Sequence record: NC_025447.1
Strand: one strand, 5' to 3'
Source of the DNA: Escherichia phage 121Q
DNA length: 64,000 bases
Part shown: positions 1 to 25,029 of the stretch, in pieces
Layout: every line of letters begins with the position of its first letter
Position numbering within the stretch: position 1 is the first letter of the stretch
Translations under genes and position numbers: made by a program
The notes under the pieces: generated by a model
What the model was told of the DNA's origin: nothing
Seen by the model: the letters and a program-made list of their open reading frames with translations, nothing else
The model's database searches: none

Positions 1-87
1 TCTTGACAAAAGGAACAAATCATGAGAACATGTATTAAAGGAAGAATGACTTTCCATTAGGTTATTTTAACTTAAAGGAGATTTCAT

Positions 88-21337: not shown

Positions 21338-21712
21338 ATGAGTATGTTAGAAATAATTGTTTCAAAAATTCTTATTCCATTTTGGAAACCAATTTCTTTT
21401 GTATTATTAATTGGCGGTTCAGCTTATGCTGGTTGGGAAGCTAATACTTATTACAGTGGATATCAACAAAGCATAGAGCAACAAATAGCTAAAAAAGTTG
21501 ATACCGCCTTGGATAAAATGCAACAAGAAAATGCAAAAAATTACCTTGAAACTAAAAAAATCATGGAAGATAATGCTAAAGTTATTGAAACAAAGGTTCC
21601 TTTTATTGTAGAACGTGAAGTTTATAAGAATGTATGTTTAGATGAAGATGGTGTAAAAGTACTGAATGAACTAAAACAAAATTCTCAAGCAGCGAGGAAT
21701 AAATTCAAATGA
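21338..21712 (+). CDS. putative i-spanin (inner-membrane spanin subunit)
   Basis: N-terminal TM segment (ILIPFWKPISFVLLIGGSAYAGW) followed by a charged, helical periplasmic region; ATGA overlap with a downstream lipoprotein gene. Confidence 0.5.
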   Translation: MSMLEIIVSKILIPFWKPISFVLLIGGSAYAGWEANTYYSGYQQSIEQQIAKKVDTALDKMQQENAKNYLETKKIMEDNAKVIETKVPFIVEREVYKNVCLDEDGVKVLNELKQNSQAARNKFK

Positions 21713-22017
21713 AAAAATTATTAGTTCCAATGATTTCTTTTTTAATTATAAGTGGGTGTGCCGAGCAAGTAAAACTACAATCCCCCGCACCAATTAAACA
21801 AGAAATTCTGTTAGAAAGATGTGATGATGATACACCTCTACCACAAAAAATTATGATTGACAAAAATGGTTTTAAAGGTTATGATGGTGCAGAAATTCTT
21901 AAAGTACTTACTCGTTGGGATGCAGTCTACAATGAATGTGCTTTAAAACACGACGCATTGATTAAAACTATTCGTGATTTACAAGGTAAAGATATTAAAA
22001 TCAATATCAAGGAATAA
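21709..22017 (+). CDS. putative o-spanin (outer-membrane lipoprotein spanin subunit)
   Basis: MKKLLVPMISFLIISGCAEQ: signal peptide with lipobox I-S-G-C; small protein with additional Cys residues. Confidence 0.55.
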   Translation: MKKLLVPMISFLIISGCAEQVKLQSPAPIKQEILLERCDDDTPLPQKIMIDKNGFKGYDGAEILKVLTRWDAVYNECALKHDALIKTIRDLQGKDIKINIKE

Positions 22018-22018
22018 A

Positions 22019-22630
22019 ATGAACAAATATCATGTTTACTATACGACAAAATTATCACTTCTTGAAGAATTAAATCAACGAAGTACTAAGATGAAACGCT
22101 ACACTTTAAATGGTATTACTTTTCGATATTTCCCACAAAAAGTTCTTACTTTTGTTAAGAATCCAAAATGCGTGGCATGTGGGATTGAAGCTACTGAAGT
22201 ACGCATTGAACGTTCATTATGTTCTGATCCAGTATATGGTAAACCACATTTAAATGTATATGCTGTATGTGGTCTTTATGAAGTTTTAATGACAGTTGAC
22301 CATAATCATCTGGCATCTAAGGGTGGACCTGATTTAGAGTCAAACTTTAATACTATGTGCTCCAGATGTAATCAACTACGTTCGAATAAAACTGAAACAG
22401 TTGATGAGTTTCTTGAGAAAGTTAAAGGTCGTAATCTTCTCCAAGAACATATGAATAATTTCTTTAATGTACAAAAAAAGAAAAATAACATTGACAAGTC
22501 GAAACTACTAGAAGAACGTAGGTTACGTCAAGAATTATGGGAAACTGATCATCTATGGCATGTTCGAGAGTTTGGTCGTCATATGAAAGCTTTGAAAAAA
22601 GAACAGAAGAAATTGAATAAACATGATTGA
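22019..22630 (+). CDS. HNH endonuclease (free-standing homing-endonuclease-like)
   Basis: Start moved to ATG 22019 (RBS AAGGA); HNH core MTVDHNHLASKGGPDLESNFNTMCSRCNQLRSN plus N-terminal CxxC. Confidence 0.65.
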   Translation: MNKYHVYYTTKLSLLEELNQRSTKMKRYTLNGITFRYFPQKVLTFVKNPKCVACGIEATEVRIERSLCSDPVYGKPHLNVYAVCGLYEVLMTVDHNHLASKGGPDLESNFNTMCSRCNQLRSNKTETVDEFLEKVKGRNLLQEHMNNFFNVQKKKNNIDKSKLLEERRLRQELWETDHLWHVREFGRHMKALKKEQKKLNKHD

Positions 22631-23039: not shown

Positions 23040-23437
23040 TGCTAAAAGAATTAGATTTTTCAAACTTAGAAATCATCAGTGCTGTTAAAAATATCTCTGA
23101 CTTTGGAGATGAGAAGTCAGTACTGGTAACTGTTACATTCGTCAAAGAACAGGATAGCTATAGCCATTTAGATGGTATTGAAGAACTAATTCACAAGACT
23201 AATCTACAAAACGATGGTAAACTCATTAAGCTTCAGGCTTCCTATACGCAAAAATCGTCATTTTTTGTAGACCTAAATAATGTAGTCAAGGTGGTATACA
23301 ATCACCCTGAACACAAATACAGGAACACGACAAGAAACGAGAATGATGCTATAGACTCCAATATCAAAGAGGATGTCGAATTCATCAACACAATTTTTGA
23401 TCGTTGTTCCAAGGATTTGAAAAAGGTATACATGTAA
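23039..23437 (+). CDS. hypothetical protein
   Basis: Start placed at TAATG overlap (23039) rather than track start 23024. Confidence 0.45.
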   Translation: MLKELDFSNLEIISAVKNISDFGDEKSVLVTVTFVKEQDSYSHLDGIEELIHKTNLQNDGKLIKLQASYTQKSSFFVDLNNVVKVVYNHPEHKYRNTTRNENDAIDSNIKEDVEFINTIFDRCSKDLKKVYM

Positions 23438-23438
23438 C

Positions 23439-23466
23439 GGGACATAACACATCCTAGTGATATAAT
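23439..23466 (+). promoter_or_regulatory. sigma70-like extended -10 promoter (GGGACA-N16-TGA-TATAAT)
   Basis: cGGGACA ... gTGATATAAT; same architecture recurs at 34184 and 53197. Confidence 0.5.
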
Positions 23467-23744
23467 GTATATTGTAAAATGACAACGGACATTGAAAAAT
23501 GGATAATGAGAACCTACTTCTCTTGAAAATGTAAAGGATAGATGAGCTTTACCGTTGTAGCGAACAGCAAAAGAAACCTGTTAGAGTACTGGCATTCAAA
23601 CAAACACGATGTAAGACCACGAATCACGGCGACACGGCTGTATAAAGAACTCCGATAAGCATACAGAGAGTTCCTAGATAGATGTATAAGGTTCGCACCT
23701 TACCAGATTTGCTAAGGGAGTTTAAGAATAGCGGACGCAATTTT

Positions 23745-23773
23745 ACAAGAAAGTTGCGTCCAAAATTTGAGAA
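23745..23773 (+). repeat. 29-nt direct repeat, copy 1
   Basis: acaagaaagTTGCGtccaaaatttgagaa; differs at 3 positions from copy 2; overlaps hairpin GGACGCAA...TTGCGTCC. Confidence 0.6.
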
Positions 23774-23896
23774 CAGGTACTACTTTGATCGAATAGAGTT
23801 AGTACTGAGTGCTGTTGATGAAAAGACCAGCGACCGTTGCATATGACTGCGATAGAGAGAAACCGAGCAACCCGCTTTCGCTCTCTAAATTTTGGT

Positions 23897-23925
23897 ACAA
23901 GAAAGATCCGTCCAAAATTTGAGAA
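23897..23925 (+). repeat. 29-nt direct repeat, copy 2
   Basis: acaagaaagATCCGtccaaaatttgagaa; flanked by inverted repeat AAATTTTGG / CCAAAATTT. Confidence 0.6.
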
Positions 23926-23964
23926 ATTCGCAATTCGATAATATCCGATGCCATCATCGTCAAG

Positions 23965-23988
23965 AGAGACTTAATTGTCTCTTTTTTA
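23965..23988 (+). terminator. terminator-like hairpin inside the non-coding region
   Basis: AGAGAC-ttaatt-GTCTCT followed by TTTTTTATT. Confidence 0.5.
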
Positions 23989-24127
23989 TTACCTTCATTC
24001 CCCTGCGGGGGGATGTAATAGTCCTCAACAAATCCCGTCAAGTTTTTAAAGTACATTATCATTTTCAGAAGGAACTAGTTTACGAAGTAAACGCAGTGAC
24101 TTCTTGAGTTACGAGAGAACGAAGTGA

Positions 24128-24556
24128 ATGAGTAACACAACGAAAATATCCGATAAATCCGAATTAACACAAATGTTATTCAAAGAATATTTTGAGTTTC
24201 AGATAAAAGACGAACAACAATTACCACAGCAATATTTGAAAAGAATTAAAGATCCGTCAGTAATTACTAAAGAAACTAATTTTTATAATAGTATTTTGGA
24301 TTTCGTTAAATCAGTTCATACAACAAGACCTATTGTAGTTTTGTTTTTTGATAAATCTATTCCTTTAGTAGTTCCTGAAAATGTATTTTTTATTTCAGAA
24401 ACTGATTTAAATAATCAAAGTACTGTAAGTAGATTAAGAAATTGCTTACTTGTAGTATGTGATTCTTCTTTGTATAATAACAGAATACTATGGGATAGAA
24501 GTAAACGCAATGCAGTTTCGGAAATGAATCCTGAAATTACCTTTATTATTAACTAA
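24128..24556 (+). CDS. hypothetical protein
   Basis: 142-aa ORF. Confidence 0.5.
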   Translation: MSNTTKISDKSELTQMLFKEYFEFQIKDEQQLPQQYLKRIKDPSVITKETNFYNSILDFVKSVHTTRPIVVLFFDKSIPLVVPENVFFISETDLNNQSTVSRLRNCLLVVCDSSLYNNRILWDRSKRNAVSEMNPEITFIIN

Positions 24557-24588: not shown

Positions 24589-25029
24589 ATGGAAGATATT
24601 AATGATTTACGACACGTAATGGACTTTATCGGAAGTACTGAAGAAGATAATTCATATGATGAAGTACTATTAACTTTTATTGAAAATAGTTTGTTTTTAA
24701 GTTCTGCTGCACATAACTGGCACTTACAATGTCATTTTTATACAAAGCATTTACAATTAGATGAACTATATAAAGAATTACCAGAATATGTAGACGCATT
24801 TGTTGAAGGTATCATGAATAATCGTGGTGCTTTGCAAGTTGGGACTGGTAATAGTTATCGTTTTACACCAATTGAAGATTGTGTACCAATTCTTGAAGAA
24901 TATGTTGAGCAATGCAGAGCAATTCATGATATGCTTGAAGAATCGGGTGATTACGGCAGTGTAAACACATTAGAAGATATTATGAGTTTTGTTGAAGGAA
25001 CACTTTACAAACTTAAAGTTTTACAATAA
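24589..25029 (+). CDS. hypothetical acidic protein
   Basis: 146-aa ORF with AAGGAG RBS. Confidence 0.5.
   Translation: MEDINDLRHVMDFIGSTEEDNSYDEVLLTFIENSLFLSSAAHNWHLQCHFYTKHLQLDELYKELPEYVDAFVEGIMNNRGALQVGTGNSYRFTPIEDCVPILEEYVEQCRAIHDMLEESGDYGSVNTLEDIMSFVEGTLYKLKVLQ

What the first reader, a model, noticed from the sequence alone, without database searches (positions are those of the whole stretch)
23439..24127. About 0.7 kb promoter-driven non-coding region with direct repeats and multiple hairpins
There is no credible ORF between 23437 and 24128, and GC content is locally higher than in flanking genes. An extended -10 promoter sits at the 5' edge. Two 29-nt direct repeats lie about 150 nt apart, each embedded in inverted repeats, together with a GC hairpin (CCCCtgcgGGGG) and a terminator-like hairpin. 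This is the profile of one or more small structured RNAs or a regulatory/origin region rather than decayed coding sequence.
Basis: seen in the sequence. Interest (0 to 1): 0.6.

Follow-up and report, generated by a model that had tools for sequence, protein, structure and literature searches.

The report
New large structured phage RNA gene
The 0.7 kb gap holds a self-contained gene for a large, intricately folded non-coding RNA that matches no described RNA family, is kept in three or four copies by a whole group of giant phages and also sits in some bacterial prophages, and whose job is still unknown.

Summary
The window comes from a PBECO4/121Q-like (Asteriusvirus) jumbo coliphage. Window 23439-24136 is not a set of small RNAs. 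It is one autonomous unit: a conserved host-type extended -10 promoter, a core of about 500 nt, an intrinsic terminator, and a near-invariant 3' block.

Fifty-eight non-redundant homologues share a fold of about 25 helices, four of them pseudoknots. In that fold 86.7% of cells are paired, against about 40% when the partners are slid. There are 956 compensatory cells against at most 236 in the controls, and 0 of 500 shuffles reach the observed values.

There is no coding signal, no tRNA or tmRNA, and no Rfam 15 match. I found no description in the literature.

Rak2-like jumbo phages carry 3-4 diverged paralogues at syntenic sites; only one lies in this window. The RNA also occurs in Serratia, Silvania and E. 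coli prophages or islands, next to the integrase.

Best reading: a new class of large trans-acting structured RNA, expressed early from a host-RNAP promoter. Its biochemical function, its true 3' end and its expression are all untested. The main rival is an RNA-primed replication origin.

The parts
23439..23466 (+). Sigma-70-type extended -10 promoter: -35-like GGGACA 23439-44, TG 23458-59, TATAAT 23461-66. The predicted transcription start is about 23472-23474.
   Evidence: 10/12 match, with TG. The TG and TATAAT columns are conserved in 54/59 homologues (alignments).
23472..23720 (+). 5' domain. Elements: PK1 23482-88 with 23552-58 (the 5' strand pairs with the loop of hairpin H2); H0 23490-93/23498-501; H1 23514-24/23534-41; H2 23546-48/23559-61; H3 23564-68/23637-41; H4 23578-81/23626-29; PK2 23632-34 with 23683-85; H5 23647-51/23669-73; hairpin 23687-92/23697-702; invariant unpaired UAAGGGAG 23713-20.
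   Evidence: Covariation. H2, H3 and H4 are 100% paired. PK2 is 98.3% paired with four different base combinations. H5 has 4-5 pair types per position.
23720..23774 (+). Peripheral arm 1. Basal helix 23720-23/23771-74; window-specific hairpin 23733-40/23754-61. It contains direct-repeat copy 1 (23744-23773).
   Evidence: basal helix 91.7% paired; the distal hairpin is not conserved; arm motif UACAA..AGWUSCGUC..AAAAUUYRAG found at this site in many lineages.
23776..23939 (+). 3' core domain. Elements: hairpin 23776-87/23794-806, whose loop 23788-93 pairs with 23934-39 (PK3); hairpin 23810-14/23828-32; PK4 23836-40 with 23867-71; H7 23848-52/23928-32; H8 23855-59/23875-79; H9 23882-85/23921-24. 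The longest invariant runs are here: GACCGUU, GAUA and AACCCGC.
   Evidence: PK3 is 99.7% paired; PK4, H7 and H8 are 100% paired, all with compensatory changes. Invariant columns are listed.
23886..23925 (+). Peripheral arm 2, inserted in H9. It contains direct-repeat copy 2 (23896-23925).
   Evidence: The arm is present in type B, type C and prophage-type copies and absent in most type A copies.
23958..23987 (+). First CGUCAAG motif (23958-64), then the intrinsic terminator: stem 23965-70/23977-82, loop UUAAUU, U-run 23982-87.
   Evidence: MFE fold. The stem sequence differs between lineages but pairing is kept (93% paired, 5/5 pairs with double changes, helix 24). The hairpin is present in 38/58 copies and absent in 20/58.
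23990..24043 (+). Near-invariant 3' block: a pyrimidine-rich strand plus G-run hairpin 23996-24003/24008-15 (loop UGCG), then AUGUAAUAGUCCUCAACAAAUCC and the second CGUCAAG (24036-42).
   Evidence: The 5' arm varies only C<->U against an invariant G-run (helix 25). This block is contiguous with the core in the 20 copies that lack the terminator.
24078..24136 (+). 3' extension hairpins: GUUUAC-GAA-GUAAAC 24078-92, and GUUAC 24108-12 / GUAAC 24132-36 enclosing the loop motif GAACGAAGUGA 24117-27. The start codon of the next ORF (24128) lies inside this hairpin.
   Evidence: A hairpin capped by GAACGNAGUGA recurs downstream in many lineages, with different stems. This was only partly analysed.

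Best explanation
Window 23439 to about 24136 is a stand-alone gene for a large, highly structured non-coding RNA of a family not described so far.

Shown:
- The host-type promoter TGnTATAAT is conserved.
- About 500 nt fold into two domains with about 25 helices, including four pseudoknots.
- Many unpaired nucleotides are invariant.
- Most lineages have an intrinsic terminator after the core, followed by a near-invariant G-run hairpin block.
- There is no coding capacity.
- Rak2-like jumbo phages carry 3-4 diverged paralogues, and single copies lie beside the integrase in enterobacterial prophages and islands.

Inferred:
- Host RNA polymerase transcribes it from the start of infection, and constitutively in lysogens. 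This would be the classic 'moron' layout of promoter, gene and terminator.
- It gives a transcript of about 515 nt, plus a read-through form of about 570-665 nt.
- The folded RNA acts in trans as a scaffold, a ribozyme-like core or a self-assembling particle that binds or processes a host or phage macromolecule. It does not regulate its neighbours.
Together with the four-fold YCGUC(M)AA motif, they are the most likely docking sites for a partner.
For: Conservation and distribution. The region is conserved in 70 GenBank jumbo phages and in nothing else in that collection. It is absent from PLSDB plasmids. Pattern scans found 56 metagenome stretches, 38 viral stretches and 4 bacterial-genome stretches.

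Structure. RNAalifold gave 66 pairs, 39 of them with compensatory changes. The explicit 126-pair model including pseudoknots was counted on 58 non-redundant copies:
- 86.7% of cells paired, against 38-44% in the slid controls.
- 956 double-change cells, against at most 236.
- Covariation score 0.360, against 0.06-0.09.
- 0/500 shuffles reach the observed values.

Strand. There are 489 G-U cells against 188 A-C cells.

Promoter and fold. The promoter is conserved. The fold z-score is -3.56.

Not coding..

Autonomy. The flanking genes differ between paralogue types and genera, and are convergent or divergent at the type A locus.

Temperate elements. It lies between the integrase and the cI-like repressor, or at the island edge.
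Against: - No expression data exist for any member. PA5oct, the only relative with RNA-seq ncRNAs, has no detectable homologue.
- The 3' end is ambiguous. A canonical terminator precedes a block that looks like part of the RNA.
- The model was derived from the same alignment on which it was counted. The slid and shuffle controls mitigate this circularity but do not remove it.
- Peripheral helices (H0, the arm hairpins) are poorly supported, at 44-68% paired.
- The biochemical function is pure inference.
- Multiple dispersed copies, followed by an AT-rich tract and very stable C(GAA)G hairpins, would also fit an origin.
Confidence: 0.8

Rival explanations
1. RNA-primed replication origin. An early transcript folds, forms a persistent hybrid near the G-run/AT-rich block and primes leading-strand synthesis, as ColE1 RNA II or the T4 oriE/oriF/oriG transcripts do. 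The 3-4 copies would be the multiple origins of a 350-kb T4-like genome.
For: - There are 3-4 dispersed copies per genome at syntenic sites, for example about 35, 178 and 262 kb in GAP32.
- The layout is a promoter, then about 0.5 kb of structured RNA, then an invariant G-rich/C-rich inverted repeat, an AT-rich tract and C(GAA)G mini-hairpins.
- One paralogue always sits beside baseplate-hub genes. From my own knowledge, T4 oriE lies in the baseplate gene cluster.
- One island places the element next to two ParB/RepB-like genes.
Against: - In 38/58 copies a strong intrinsic terminator lies between the RNA core and the putative origin block.
- Four covarying pseudoknots and 82 invariant columns are far more structure than a primer is known to need.
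- In prophages it sits between int and cI, not in a replication module.
- The hairpin of the downstream block shows RNA-type C<->U/G wobble variation.
- There is no GC-skew change at the site.
- No antisense RNA I-like promoter is evident.
Confidence: 0.1
2. Long cis-acting leader or attenuator (riboswitch-like) that controls the downstream ORF 24128-24556 through the internal terminator.
For: - A terminator followed by a conserved block and then an ORF on the same strand. The ORF start codon lies in a conserved-type hairpin.
- The two co-varying CGUCAR motifs flank the terminator, which is reminiscent of alternative pairings.
Against: - The downstream gene is different in each paralogue type and genus. 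At the type A locus and in several prophages the next gene is on the opposite strand.
- 20/58 copies have no terminator.
- No Rfam riboswitch or leader matches.
Confidence: 0.03
3. Relic or active mobile element (ORF-less intron, MITE-like element or satellite fragment) that has spread to several sites in these genomes and to other mobile elements.
For: - There are several copies per genome.
- It occurs in unrelated mobile elements: jumbo phages, prophages with large serine recombinases, and a tyrosine-integrase island.
- The short direct motif CGUCAAG flanks the terminator segment.
Against: - Paralogues within a genome are only 64-77% identical and each type is syntenic across genera, so the duplications are ancient and not ongoing transposition.
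- There are no terminal inverted repeats and no interrupted host gene.
- Group I, group II, HEARO and other Rfam models give nothing.
- Each copy has its own conserved promoter.
Confidence: 0.03
4. Decayed or unrecognised protein-coding sequence, including the small CDSs annotated in some records.
For: Several GenBank records annotate 24-87 aa 'hypothetical proteins' inside the region.
Against: - Those CDSs differ in position and strand from record to record.
- Every frame carries at least 5 (plus strand) or 2-3 (minus strand) stops in every copy.
- There is no codon periodicity, and indels are not multiples of three.
- The substitutions are compensatory in helices.
Confidence: 0.02

Closest known systems
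GOLLD and ROOL RNAs (large ornate RNAs carried by phages and prophages; Rfam; cryo-EM homo-oligomeric cages, PMC12286853)
   Same: Both are 0.5-0.8 kb, multi-pseudoknotted, stand-alone RNA genes found on phages and prophages with no conserved protein partner nearby. Their function is unknown.
   Different: There is no sequence or structure match to their covariance models. The hosts are Enterobacterales and jumbo myoviruses rather than Lactobacillales or rumen bacteria. There is no association with tRNA genes: the 64-kb window has none. There are 3-4 diverged paralogues per genome. Oligomerisation is untested.
OLE and raiA motif RNAs (large bacterial structured ncRNAs)
   Same: Similar size class. 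Both have many invariant unpaired nucleotides within a covarying scaffold, which suggests a ribonucleoprotein or catalytic core.
   Different: OLE and raiA are chromosomal genes of Firmicutes and Actinobacteria with conserved neighbouring genes. This RNA is cargo of mobile elements in Gammaproteobacteria. No model match.
ColE1 RNA II / T4 origin transcripts (oriE, oriF, oriG)
   Same: A promoter-driven non-coding transcript of about 0.5 kb with functional folding, G-rich/C-rich elements near its 3' end, and several loci per phage genome (T4).
   Different: In most copies an intrinsic terminator lies before the putative transition point. The structure is much more elaborate. No antisense regulator is seen. 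It sits in the prophage lysogeny module. The comparison rests on my own knowledge of those systems and was not tested here.
PA5oct 'putative lncRNAs' ncRNA001/002/004 (RNA-seq defined, PMC7318152)
   Same: They are highly expressed ORF-less transcripts of 0.24-0.62 kb in a distant relative of the Rak2-like jumbo phages.
   Different: There is no detectable homology: nhmmer E >= 0.98 and none of the invariant motifs are present.
Prophage 'morons' and superinfection-exclusion genes between int and cI
   Same: A cassette with its own sigma-70 promoter and terminator. Its GC content differs from its surroundings. In temperate elements it sits between the integrase and the repressor.
   Different: The product is a large structured RNA, not a protein. 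The same gene is multi-copy in strictly lytic jumbo phages.

Membership tests
Any Rfam 15 family (including GOLLD, ROOL, OLE, raiA, HEARO, group I/II introns, RNase P, tmRNA, 6S, riboswitches, small ribozymes) | Covariance-model score at or above the family gathering threshold, or at least a consistent sub-threshold hit in several homologues | tested here: not met
   There are 0 hits at gathering score in the 64-kb window. The relaxed search of 23200-24400 gave only chance snoRNA/sRNA hits of at most 17 bits. A relaxed search of 15 diverse copies gave no hit inside the element in any of them.
tRNA / tmRNA | Cloverleaf or tRNA-like domain with a tag reading frame, detectable by ARAGORN | tested here: not met
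   0 genes in the window. No T-arm or acceptor motifs were seen in the alignment.
Protein-coding gene | A conserved open reading frame, codon periodicity of substitutions, and indels in multiples of three | tested here: not met
   at least 5 stops in every plus-strand frame in all 58 copies; variable sites fall 46/49/34 by position mod 3; 300 of 2202 gap runs are divisible by 3.
Structured ncRNA gene (generic) | Compensatory base changes that maintain helices above phylogenetic controls, with strand-specific G-U pairing | tested here: met
   86.7% paired against about 40%; 956 double-change cells against at most 236; 0/500 shuffles; G-U 489 against A-C 188.
Structured ncRNA gene (generic) | Its own promoter and terminator, independent of neighbouring genes | tested here: met
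   Promoter conserved in 54/59 copies. Terminator present in 38/58 copies. The neighbouring genes are not conserved.
Structured ncRNA gene (generic) | A detectable stable transcript | not testable with these tools
   No RNA-seq of any Rak2-like phage was found in the library.
Cis-regulatory leader / riboswitch | A conserved downstream gene or operon on the same strand | tested here: not met
   The downstream genes differ or are convergent.
ColE1-type RNA II origin | An uninterrupted transcript running into the origin, an antisense RNA I promoter, and plasmid or replication-module context | tested here: not met
   A terminator lies before the 3' block in 38/58 copies. There is no convincing minus-strand promoter facing the 5' domain beyond chance (8 promoter-like sites against 4.5 expected). 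There are no plasmid hits.
Replication origin (generic, T4-like R-loop type) | Replication initiates at the site | not testable with these tools
   Only indirect evidence is available: multiple dispersed copies and a downstream AT-rich tract.
Prophage moron cassette | Promoter-gene-terminator unit with deviating base composition, located in the lysogeny module or at the island edge | tested here: met
   GC 0.40 against 0.26-0.33. The order LSR-RNA-cI is seen in L074 and L096. It lies at the island edge in L095, L098 and L119.
CRISPR array or iteron array | Three or more regularly spaced repeats | tested here: not met
   Only two copies of the 30-nt repeat are found. A third match, 15/18, inside the next ORF is weak. 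The repeats map to two separate structural arms.

The most novel reading that the evidence does not exclude
This is a previously unrecognised class of large functional RNA, either a ribozyme or a self-assembling RNA particle in the manner of GOLLD and ROOL. Mobile elements of Enterobacterales would deploy it as a host-takeover or inter-phage-conflict factor. Jumbo phages would express three or four diverged paralogues early in infection, possibly as a hetero-oligomer. Temperate phages would express one copy from the lysogeny module.
Probability: 0.25. Interest if true: 0.9.

Novelty: categorically new. Interest (0 to 1): 0.75.

Why it matters
Only a handful of bacterial or phage RNA classes larger than 400 nt with this level of tertiary complexity are known. 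Each has opened a line of work: ribozymes, OLE, and the GOLLD/ROOL cages.

This one lives in E. coli phages that can be cultured (PBECO4, 121Q, G17, phAPEC6 and others) and in E. coli and Serratia prophages. Genetics, RNA-seq, pull-downs and cryo-EM are therefore immediately feasible.

It also corrects the annotation of about 70 jumbo-phage genomes, where the three loci are either blank or filled with spurious micro-ORFs.

If the rival reading is right, it would instead give the first map of replication origins in the Rak2-like jumbo phages.

Tried and rejected
Searches that found nothing:
- Rfam at gathering and relaxed thresholds, on the window and on 15 homologues: nothing.
- ARAGORN: nothing.
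- A second copy in the window: none by BLAST, pattern search or nhmmer.
- PLSDB plasmids: no match.
- Literature: searches by phage names, topic words and sequence strings found no description.

Ideas tested and dropped:
- Homology to the RNA-seq-defined lncRNAs of the distant relative PA5oct. Rejected: nhmmer E >= 0.98 and no invariant motifs.
- Hammerhead-like reading of the GAUGAG...CGAA motif. Rejected: the 'GAA' positions vary because they belong to helix H3, and the junction topology is wrong.
- RNase P CR-IV-like similarity of ACAGAGCAACCCGCUUUCG. Rejected: the segment forms the local H8/PK4 pairings, and the RNase P models do not hit.
- A small ORF behind the invariant SD-like UAAGGGAG. 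Rejected: no conserved start codon.
- boxA/boxB-like motifs. Not conserved across types.
- A conserved protein partner among neighbours of the prophage and island copies. Only the integrase and the cI-like repressor are shared.
- A second sigma-70 promoter inside the 3' block. A TAnnAn hexamer always follows the second CGUCAR, but the -35 is poor in the window copy. This is left open.

Technical failures:
- mafft Q-INS-i was unavailable.
- The tool's terminator scan missed the plus-strand terminator. The MFE fold and the alignment show it.

Full report
**Observation.** The window is a PBECO4/121Q/G17-like jumbo coliphage of the genus Asteriusvirus. It is 97-98% identical to many records over 8 kb. 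Between the stop codon at 23437 and the ATG at 24128 there is no ORF longer than 87 aa on either strand. GC is 0.395, against 0.26-0.33 in the neighbouring genes. An extended -10 promoter sits at the 5' edge: GGGACA, 16 nt, TG-n-TATAAT, at 23439-23466. Two 30-nt repeats with 28/30 identical bases lie at 23744-23773 and 23896-23925. A terminator hairpin with a U-run (23965-23987) and the GC hairpin (23996-24015) follow.

**Conservation.** BLASTN finds the region in 70 phage records, all of them Rak2-like jumbo phages: Asteriusvirus, Mimasvirus (GAP32, CBB, XbC2), Eneladusvirus (BF, Yen9-04, Erwinia pEa phages), Alcyoneusvirus (RaK2, K64-1), the Munch/7t3/Kae01 group and two Erwinia aphidicola phages. 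The distant genera are at 55-71% identity. That is high for an intergenic region in genomes whose proteins are much more diverged. Most records leave the region unannotated. Others fill it with 24-87 aa 'hypothetical proteins' that differ in place and strand from record to record.

The alignment shows four things:
- a conserved TGnTATAAT (54/59 copies);
- a conserved core of about 500 nt;
- a hairpin plus U-run whose stem sequence changes between lineages while staying paired;
- behind it, a nearly invariant block, YYYCCCC-UGCG-GGGGGGAUGAAAAUGUCCUCAACAAAUCUCGUCAR.

**Paralogues and wider distribution.** Pattern scans and reciprocal BLAST show that each genome holds three, sometimes four, diverged copies (64-77% identical to each other) at syntenic places:
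- type A lies between endonuclease VII and the baseplate-hub gene;
- type B/C lies about 80 kb away (this is the window's copy);
- type D lies upstream of a DNA methyltransferase cluster.

Examples are GAP32 at about 35, 178 and 262 kb, BF at about 31, 175 and 259 kb, and Asteriusvirus at about 60, 112 and 196 kb in vB_Ec-M-J coordinates. Only one copy lies in this window. The flanking genes are unrelated between types, and at the type A locus both neighbours are on the opposite strand. The unit is therefore autonomous.

Outside jumbo phages the same full-length element occurs in the chromosomes of Serratia fonticola, Serratia sp. and Silvania hatchlandensis, in an Enterobacteriaceae MAG, in 2 of 5,426 complete E. 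coli genomes, and in metagenome contigs. There it lies at the integrase end of integrated elements:
- large serine recombinase, then the RNA, then a cI-like repressor (L074, L096; L095 has the RNA and cI next to thiM);
- serine recombinase, ParB, ParB, then the RNA next to rof/tilS (L098, L040);
- a 10.6-kb tyrosine-integrase island at ffs in E. coli LR-29-1.

It is absent from 72,556 plasmids.

**It is an RNA, and a complicated one.** RNAalifold on 27 copies predicted 66 pairs, 39 with compensatory changes. A column-pair covariation scan on 59 non-redundant copies, a helix scan and inspection added four pseudoknots:
- PK1: the 5' strand 23482-88 pairs with the loop of hairpin H2 (23552-58). 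The paired sequences are entirely different in types A, B and C.
- PK2: 23632-34 pairs with 23683-85, in four different base combinations.
- PK3: the loop 23788-93 pairs with 23934-39.
- PK4: 23836-40 pairs with 23867-71, which is the loop of H8. Variants include GUUGC/GCAAC, GUUAC/GUAAC, GUUGA/UCAAC and GUUGU/ACAAC.

The explicit 126-pair model was counted on 58 copies, with these results:

| Measure | Model | Controls |
|---|---|---|
| Cells paired | 86.7% | 38-44% (3' partner slid by 1-3 columns) |
| Double-change cells | 956 | at most 236 (slid) |
| Covariation score | 0.360 | 0.06-0.09 (slid) |
| Shuffles reaching the observed value | 0 of 500, on all five measures | |

H2, H3, H4, H7, H8 and PK4 are 100% paired, PK3 is 99.7% and PK2 is 98.3%. 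G-U cells outnumber A-C cells 489 to 188, so the plus strand is the functional one. Eighty-two columns are invariant, many of them unpaired: UAAGGGAG, GACCGUU, GAUA, AACCCGC and GGGGG.U. Coding is excluded by stops in all frames in all copies, no codon periodicity, and indels that are not multiples of three. The single-sequence fold gives a z-score of -3.56.

Two caveats apply. The structure was derived from these alignments. The peripheral helices (H0, the distal arm hairpins) are weakly supported.

**The direct repeats.** The two repeats sit in two peripheral arms. One is inserted after the invariant UAAGGGAG. The other is inserted in helix H9. Across the family, a module of about 30 nt, (G)UACAAUAUAGAUCCGUCCAAAAUUUGAG, occupies one or both of these two positions depending on lineage:
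- type A and type D carry arm 1;
- type B carries arm 2;
- type C, which includes the window, and several prophage types carry both.

The repeats are therefore a duplicated structural or recognition module, not iterons or a repeat array. Related YCGUC(M)AA motifs occur four times in the window RNA. The two CGUCAR copies that flank the terminator change in concert between lineages: RaK2 has CUUCAAG at both, and other lineages have CGUCAG or CGUCAAG at both. This is unexplained.

**3' end.** In 38 of 58 copies a canonical intrinsic terminator separates the core from the invariant G-run block. In 20 of 58 copies (type D and several prophage types) there is no terminator and the block is contiguous with the core. 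The 5' arm of the G-run hairpin varies only C<->U against an invariant G-run, which is RNA-type wobble behaviour (helix 25). Downstream, many lineages have a hairpin capped by GAACGNAGUGA and C(GAA)G triloop hairpins. In the window these lie at 24078-92 and 24108-36, and the latter encloses the start codon at 24128.

I therefore expect a product of about 515 nt plus a longer read-through form, or a separately initiated one. This needs 3'-end mapping.

**Comparison with known systems.** No Rfam 15 model matches at gathering or relaxed thresholds, either in the window or in 15 diverse homologues. ARAGORN finds nothing. The RNA-seq-defined lncRNAs of PA5oct are not homologous. Full-text searches by phage name, by topic and by sequence strings found no description.

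In kind it resembles GOLLD and ROOL, which are large ornate RNAs borne by phages and prophages (PMC12286853), and in layout it resembles a prophage 'moron'. It fails every family membership test that I could run.

**Mechanism.** Shown:
- an autonomous, conserved, promoter-equipped gene for a pseudoknotted RNA;
- multi-copy in jumbo phages and single-copy in temperate elements.

Inferred:
- early or constitutive transcription by host sigma-70 RNA polymerase;
- action in trans as a folded scaffold, catalytic core or assembly;
- the arm modules and CGUC motifs as docking sites.

The main rival is an RNA-primed origin, suggested by the dispersed copies, the G/C-rich inverted repeat, the AT-rich tract with stable mini-hairpins, the ParB neighbours in one island, and an analogy to T4 oriE and ColE1 RNA II. 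I rate it at about 0.1 because of the intervening terminator, the excess of RNA structure and the int-cI location in prophages. The cis-leader, mobile-element and coding readings are each at or below 0.03.

**Verdict.** It is a new family of large structured RNA, not in Rfam and not found in the literature available here. It is experimentally accessible in E. coli. Its function, its expression and its 3' end are all still to be established.

Noticed in passing
L097 3257-6034; L074 2478-5687; L096 2461-6572; L046 554-2897; L098 61-4288: In temperate elements the RNA gene lies directly downstream of, or within 2 kb of, a large serine recombinase gene. In three related prophages it lies between that integrase and a cI/LexA-like repressor. 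This is the classic position of lysogen-expressed accessory genes.
   Followed up: partly
L119 (E. coli LR-29-1, NZ_AP027515.1 3470114-3488514), element at about 8860-9650: A 10.6-kb island sits between ffs and ybaA. It carries an IS3-disrupted tyrosine integrase, the RNA in a 1.4-kb unannotated gap, and genes for DUF4326, DUF488 and a dual-OB-domain protein. PGAP annotates nothing at the RNA.
   Followed up: partly
window 23958-23964 and 24036-24042: The heptamer CGUCAAG occurs on both sides of the terminator and G-run segment. The two copies change together between lineages: CGUCAG at both, or CUUCAAG at both in RaK2. This could mean a shared partner or alternative pairings. It is unexplained.
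   Followed up: partly
window 24117-24136: The start codon (24128) of the next ORF (142 aa, hypothetical) lies inside a hairpin whose loop carries the family's recurrent GAACGAAGUGA motif. The RNA's 3' extension and that gene's translation start therefore overlap.
   Followed up: partly
window 24248-24265: A third, weaker copy (15/18) of the AAAGAUCCGUC arm motif lies inside ORF 24128-24556. It may be chance.
   Followed up: no
window 21974-22630: A 218-aa ORF about 0.8 kb upstream is annotated as an HNH endonuclease in close relatives. It is probably a free-standing homing endonuclease and is not linked to the RNA in other genera.
   Followed up: no
window 21338-22017: Two overlapping ORFs of 124 and 102 aa, the second with a lipoprotein-like N-terminus, correspond to the 'Rz-like spanin' annotations in relatives.
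   Followed up: no
window 24589-25029: This 146-aa ORF is annotated in relatives as a starvation-inducible (Dps-like) DNA-binding protein, as rI.-1-like, or as a structural protein. The names are inconsistent across records.
   Followed up: no
L036 (phage A4, type A copy), around A2 columns 262-285: The A4 type A paralogue carries a tandem duplication of about 22 nt (GAGAGTTCCTCGATA / GTTCCTCGATAGA) in the H5 region. This shows that the peripheral hairpins tolerate insertions.
   Followed up: no
L005/L014/L034, 3' of the type A copies: The type A locus ends at a bidirectional terminator (AAAAAAACCAGCA...TGCTGGTT) shared with the convergent small gene upstream of the baseplate hub. It could set the 3' end of a read-through RNA of about 760 nt.
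   Followed up: no
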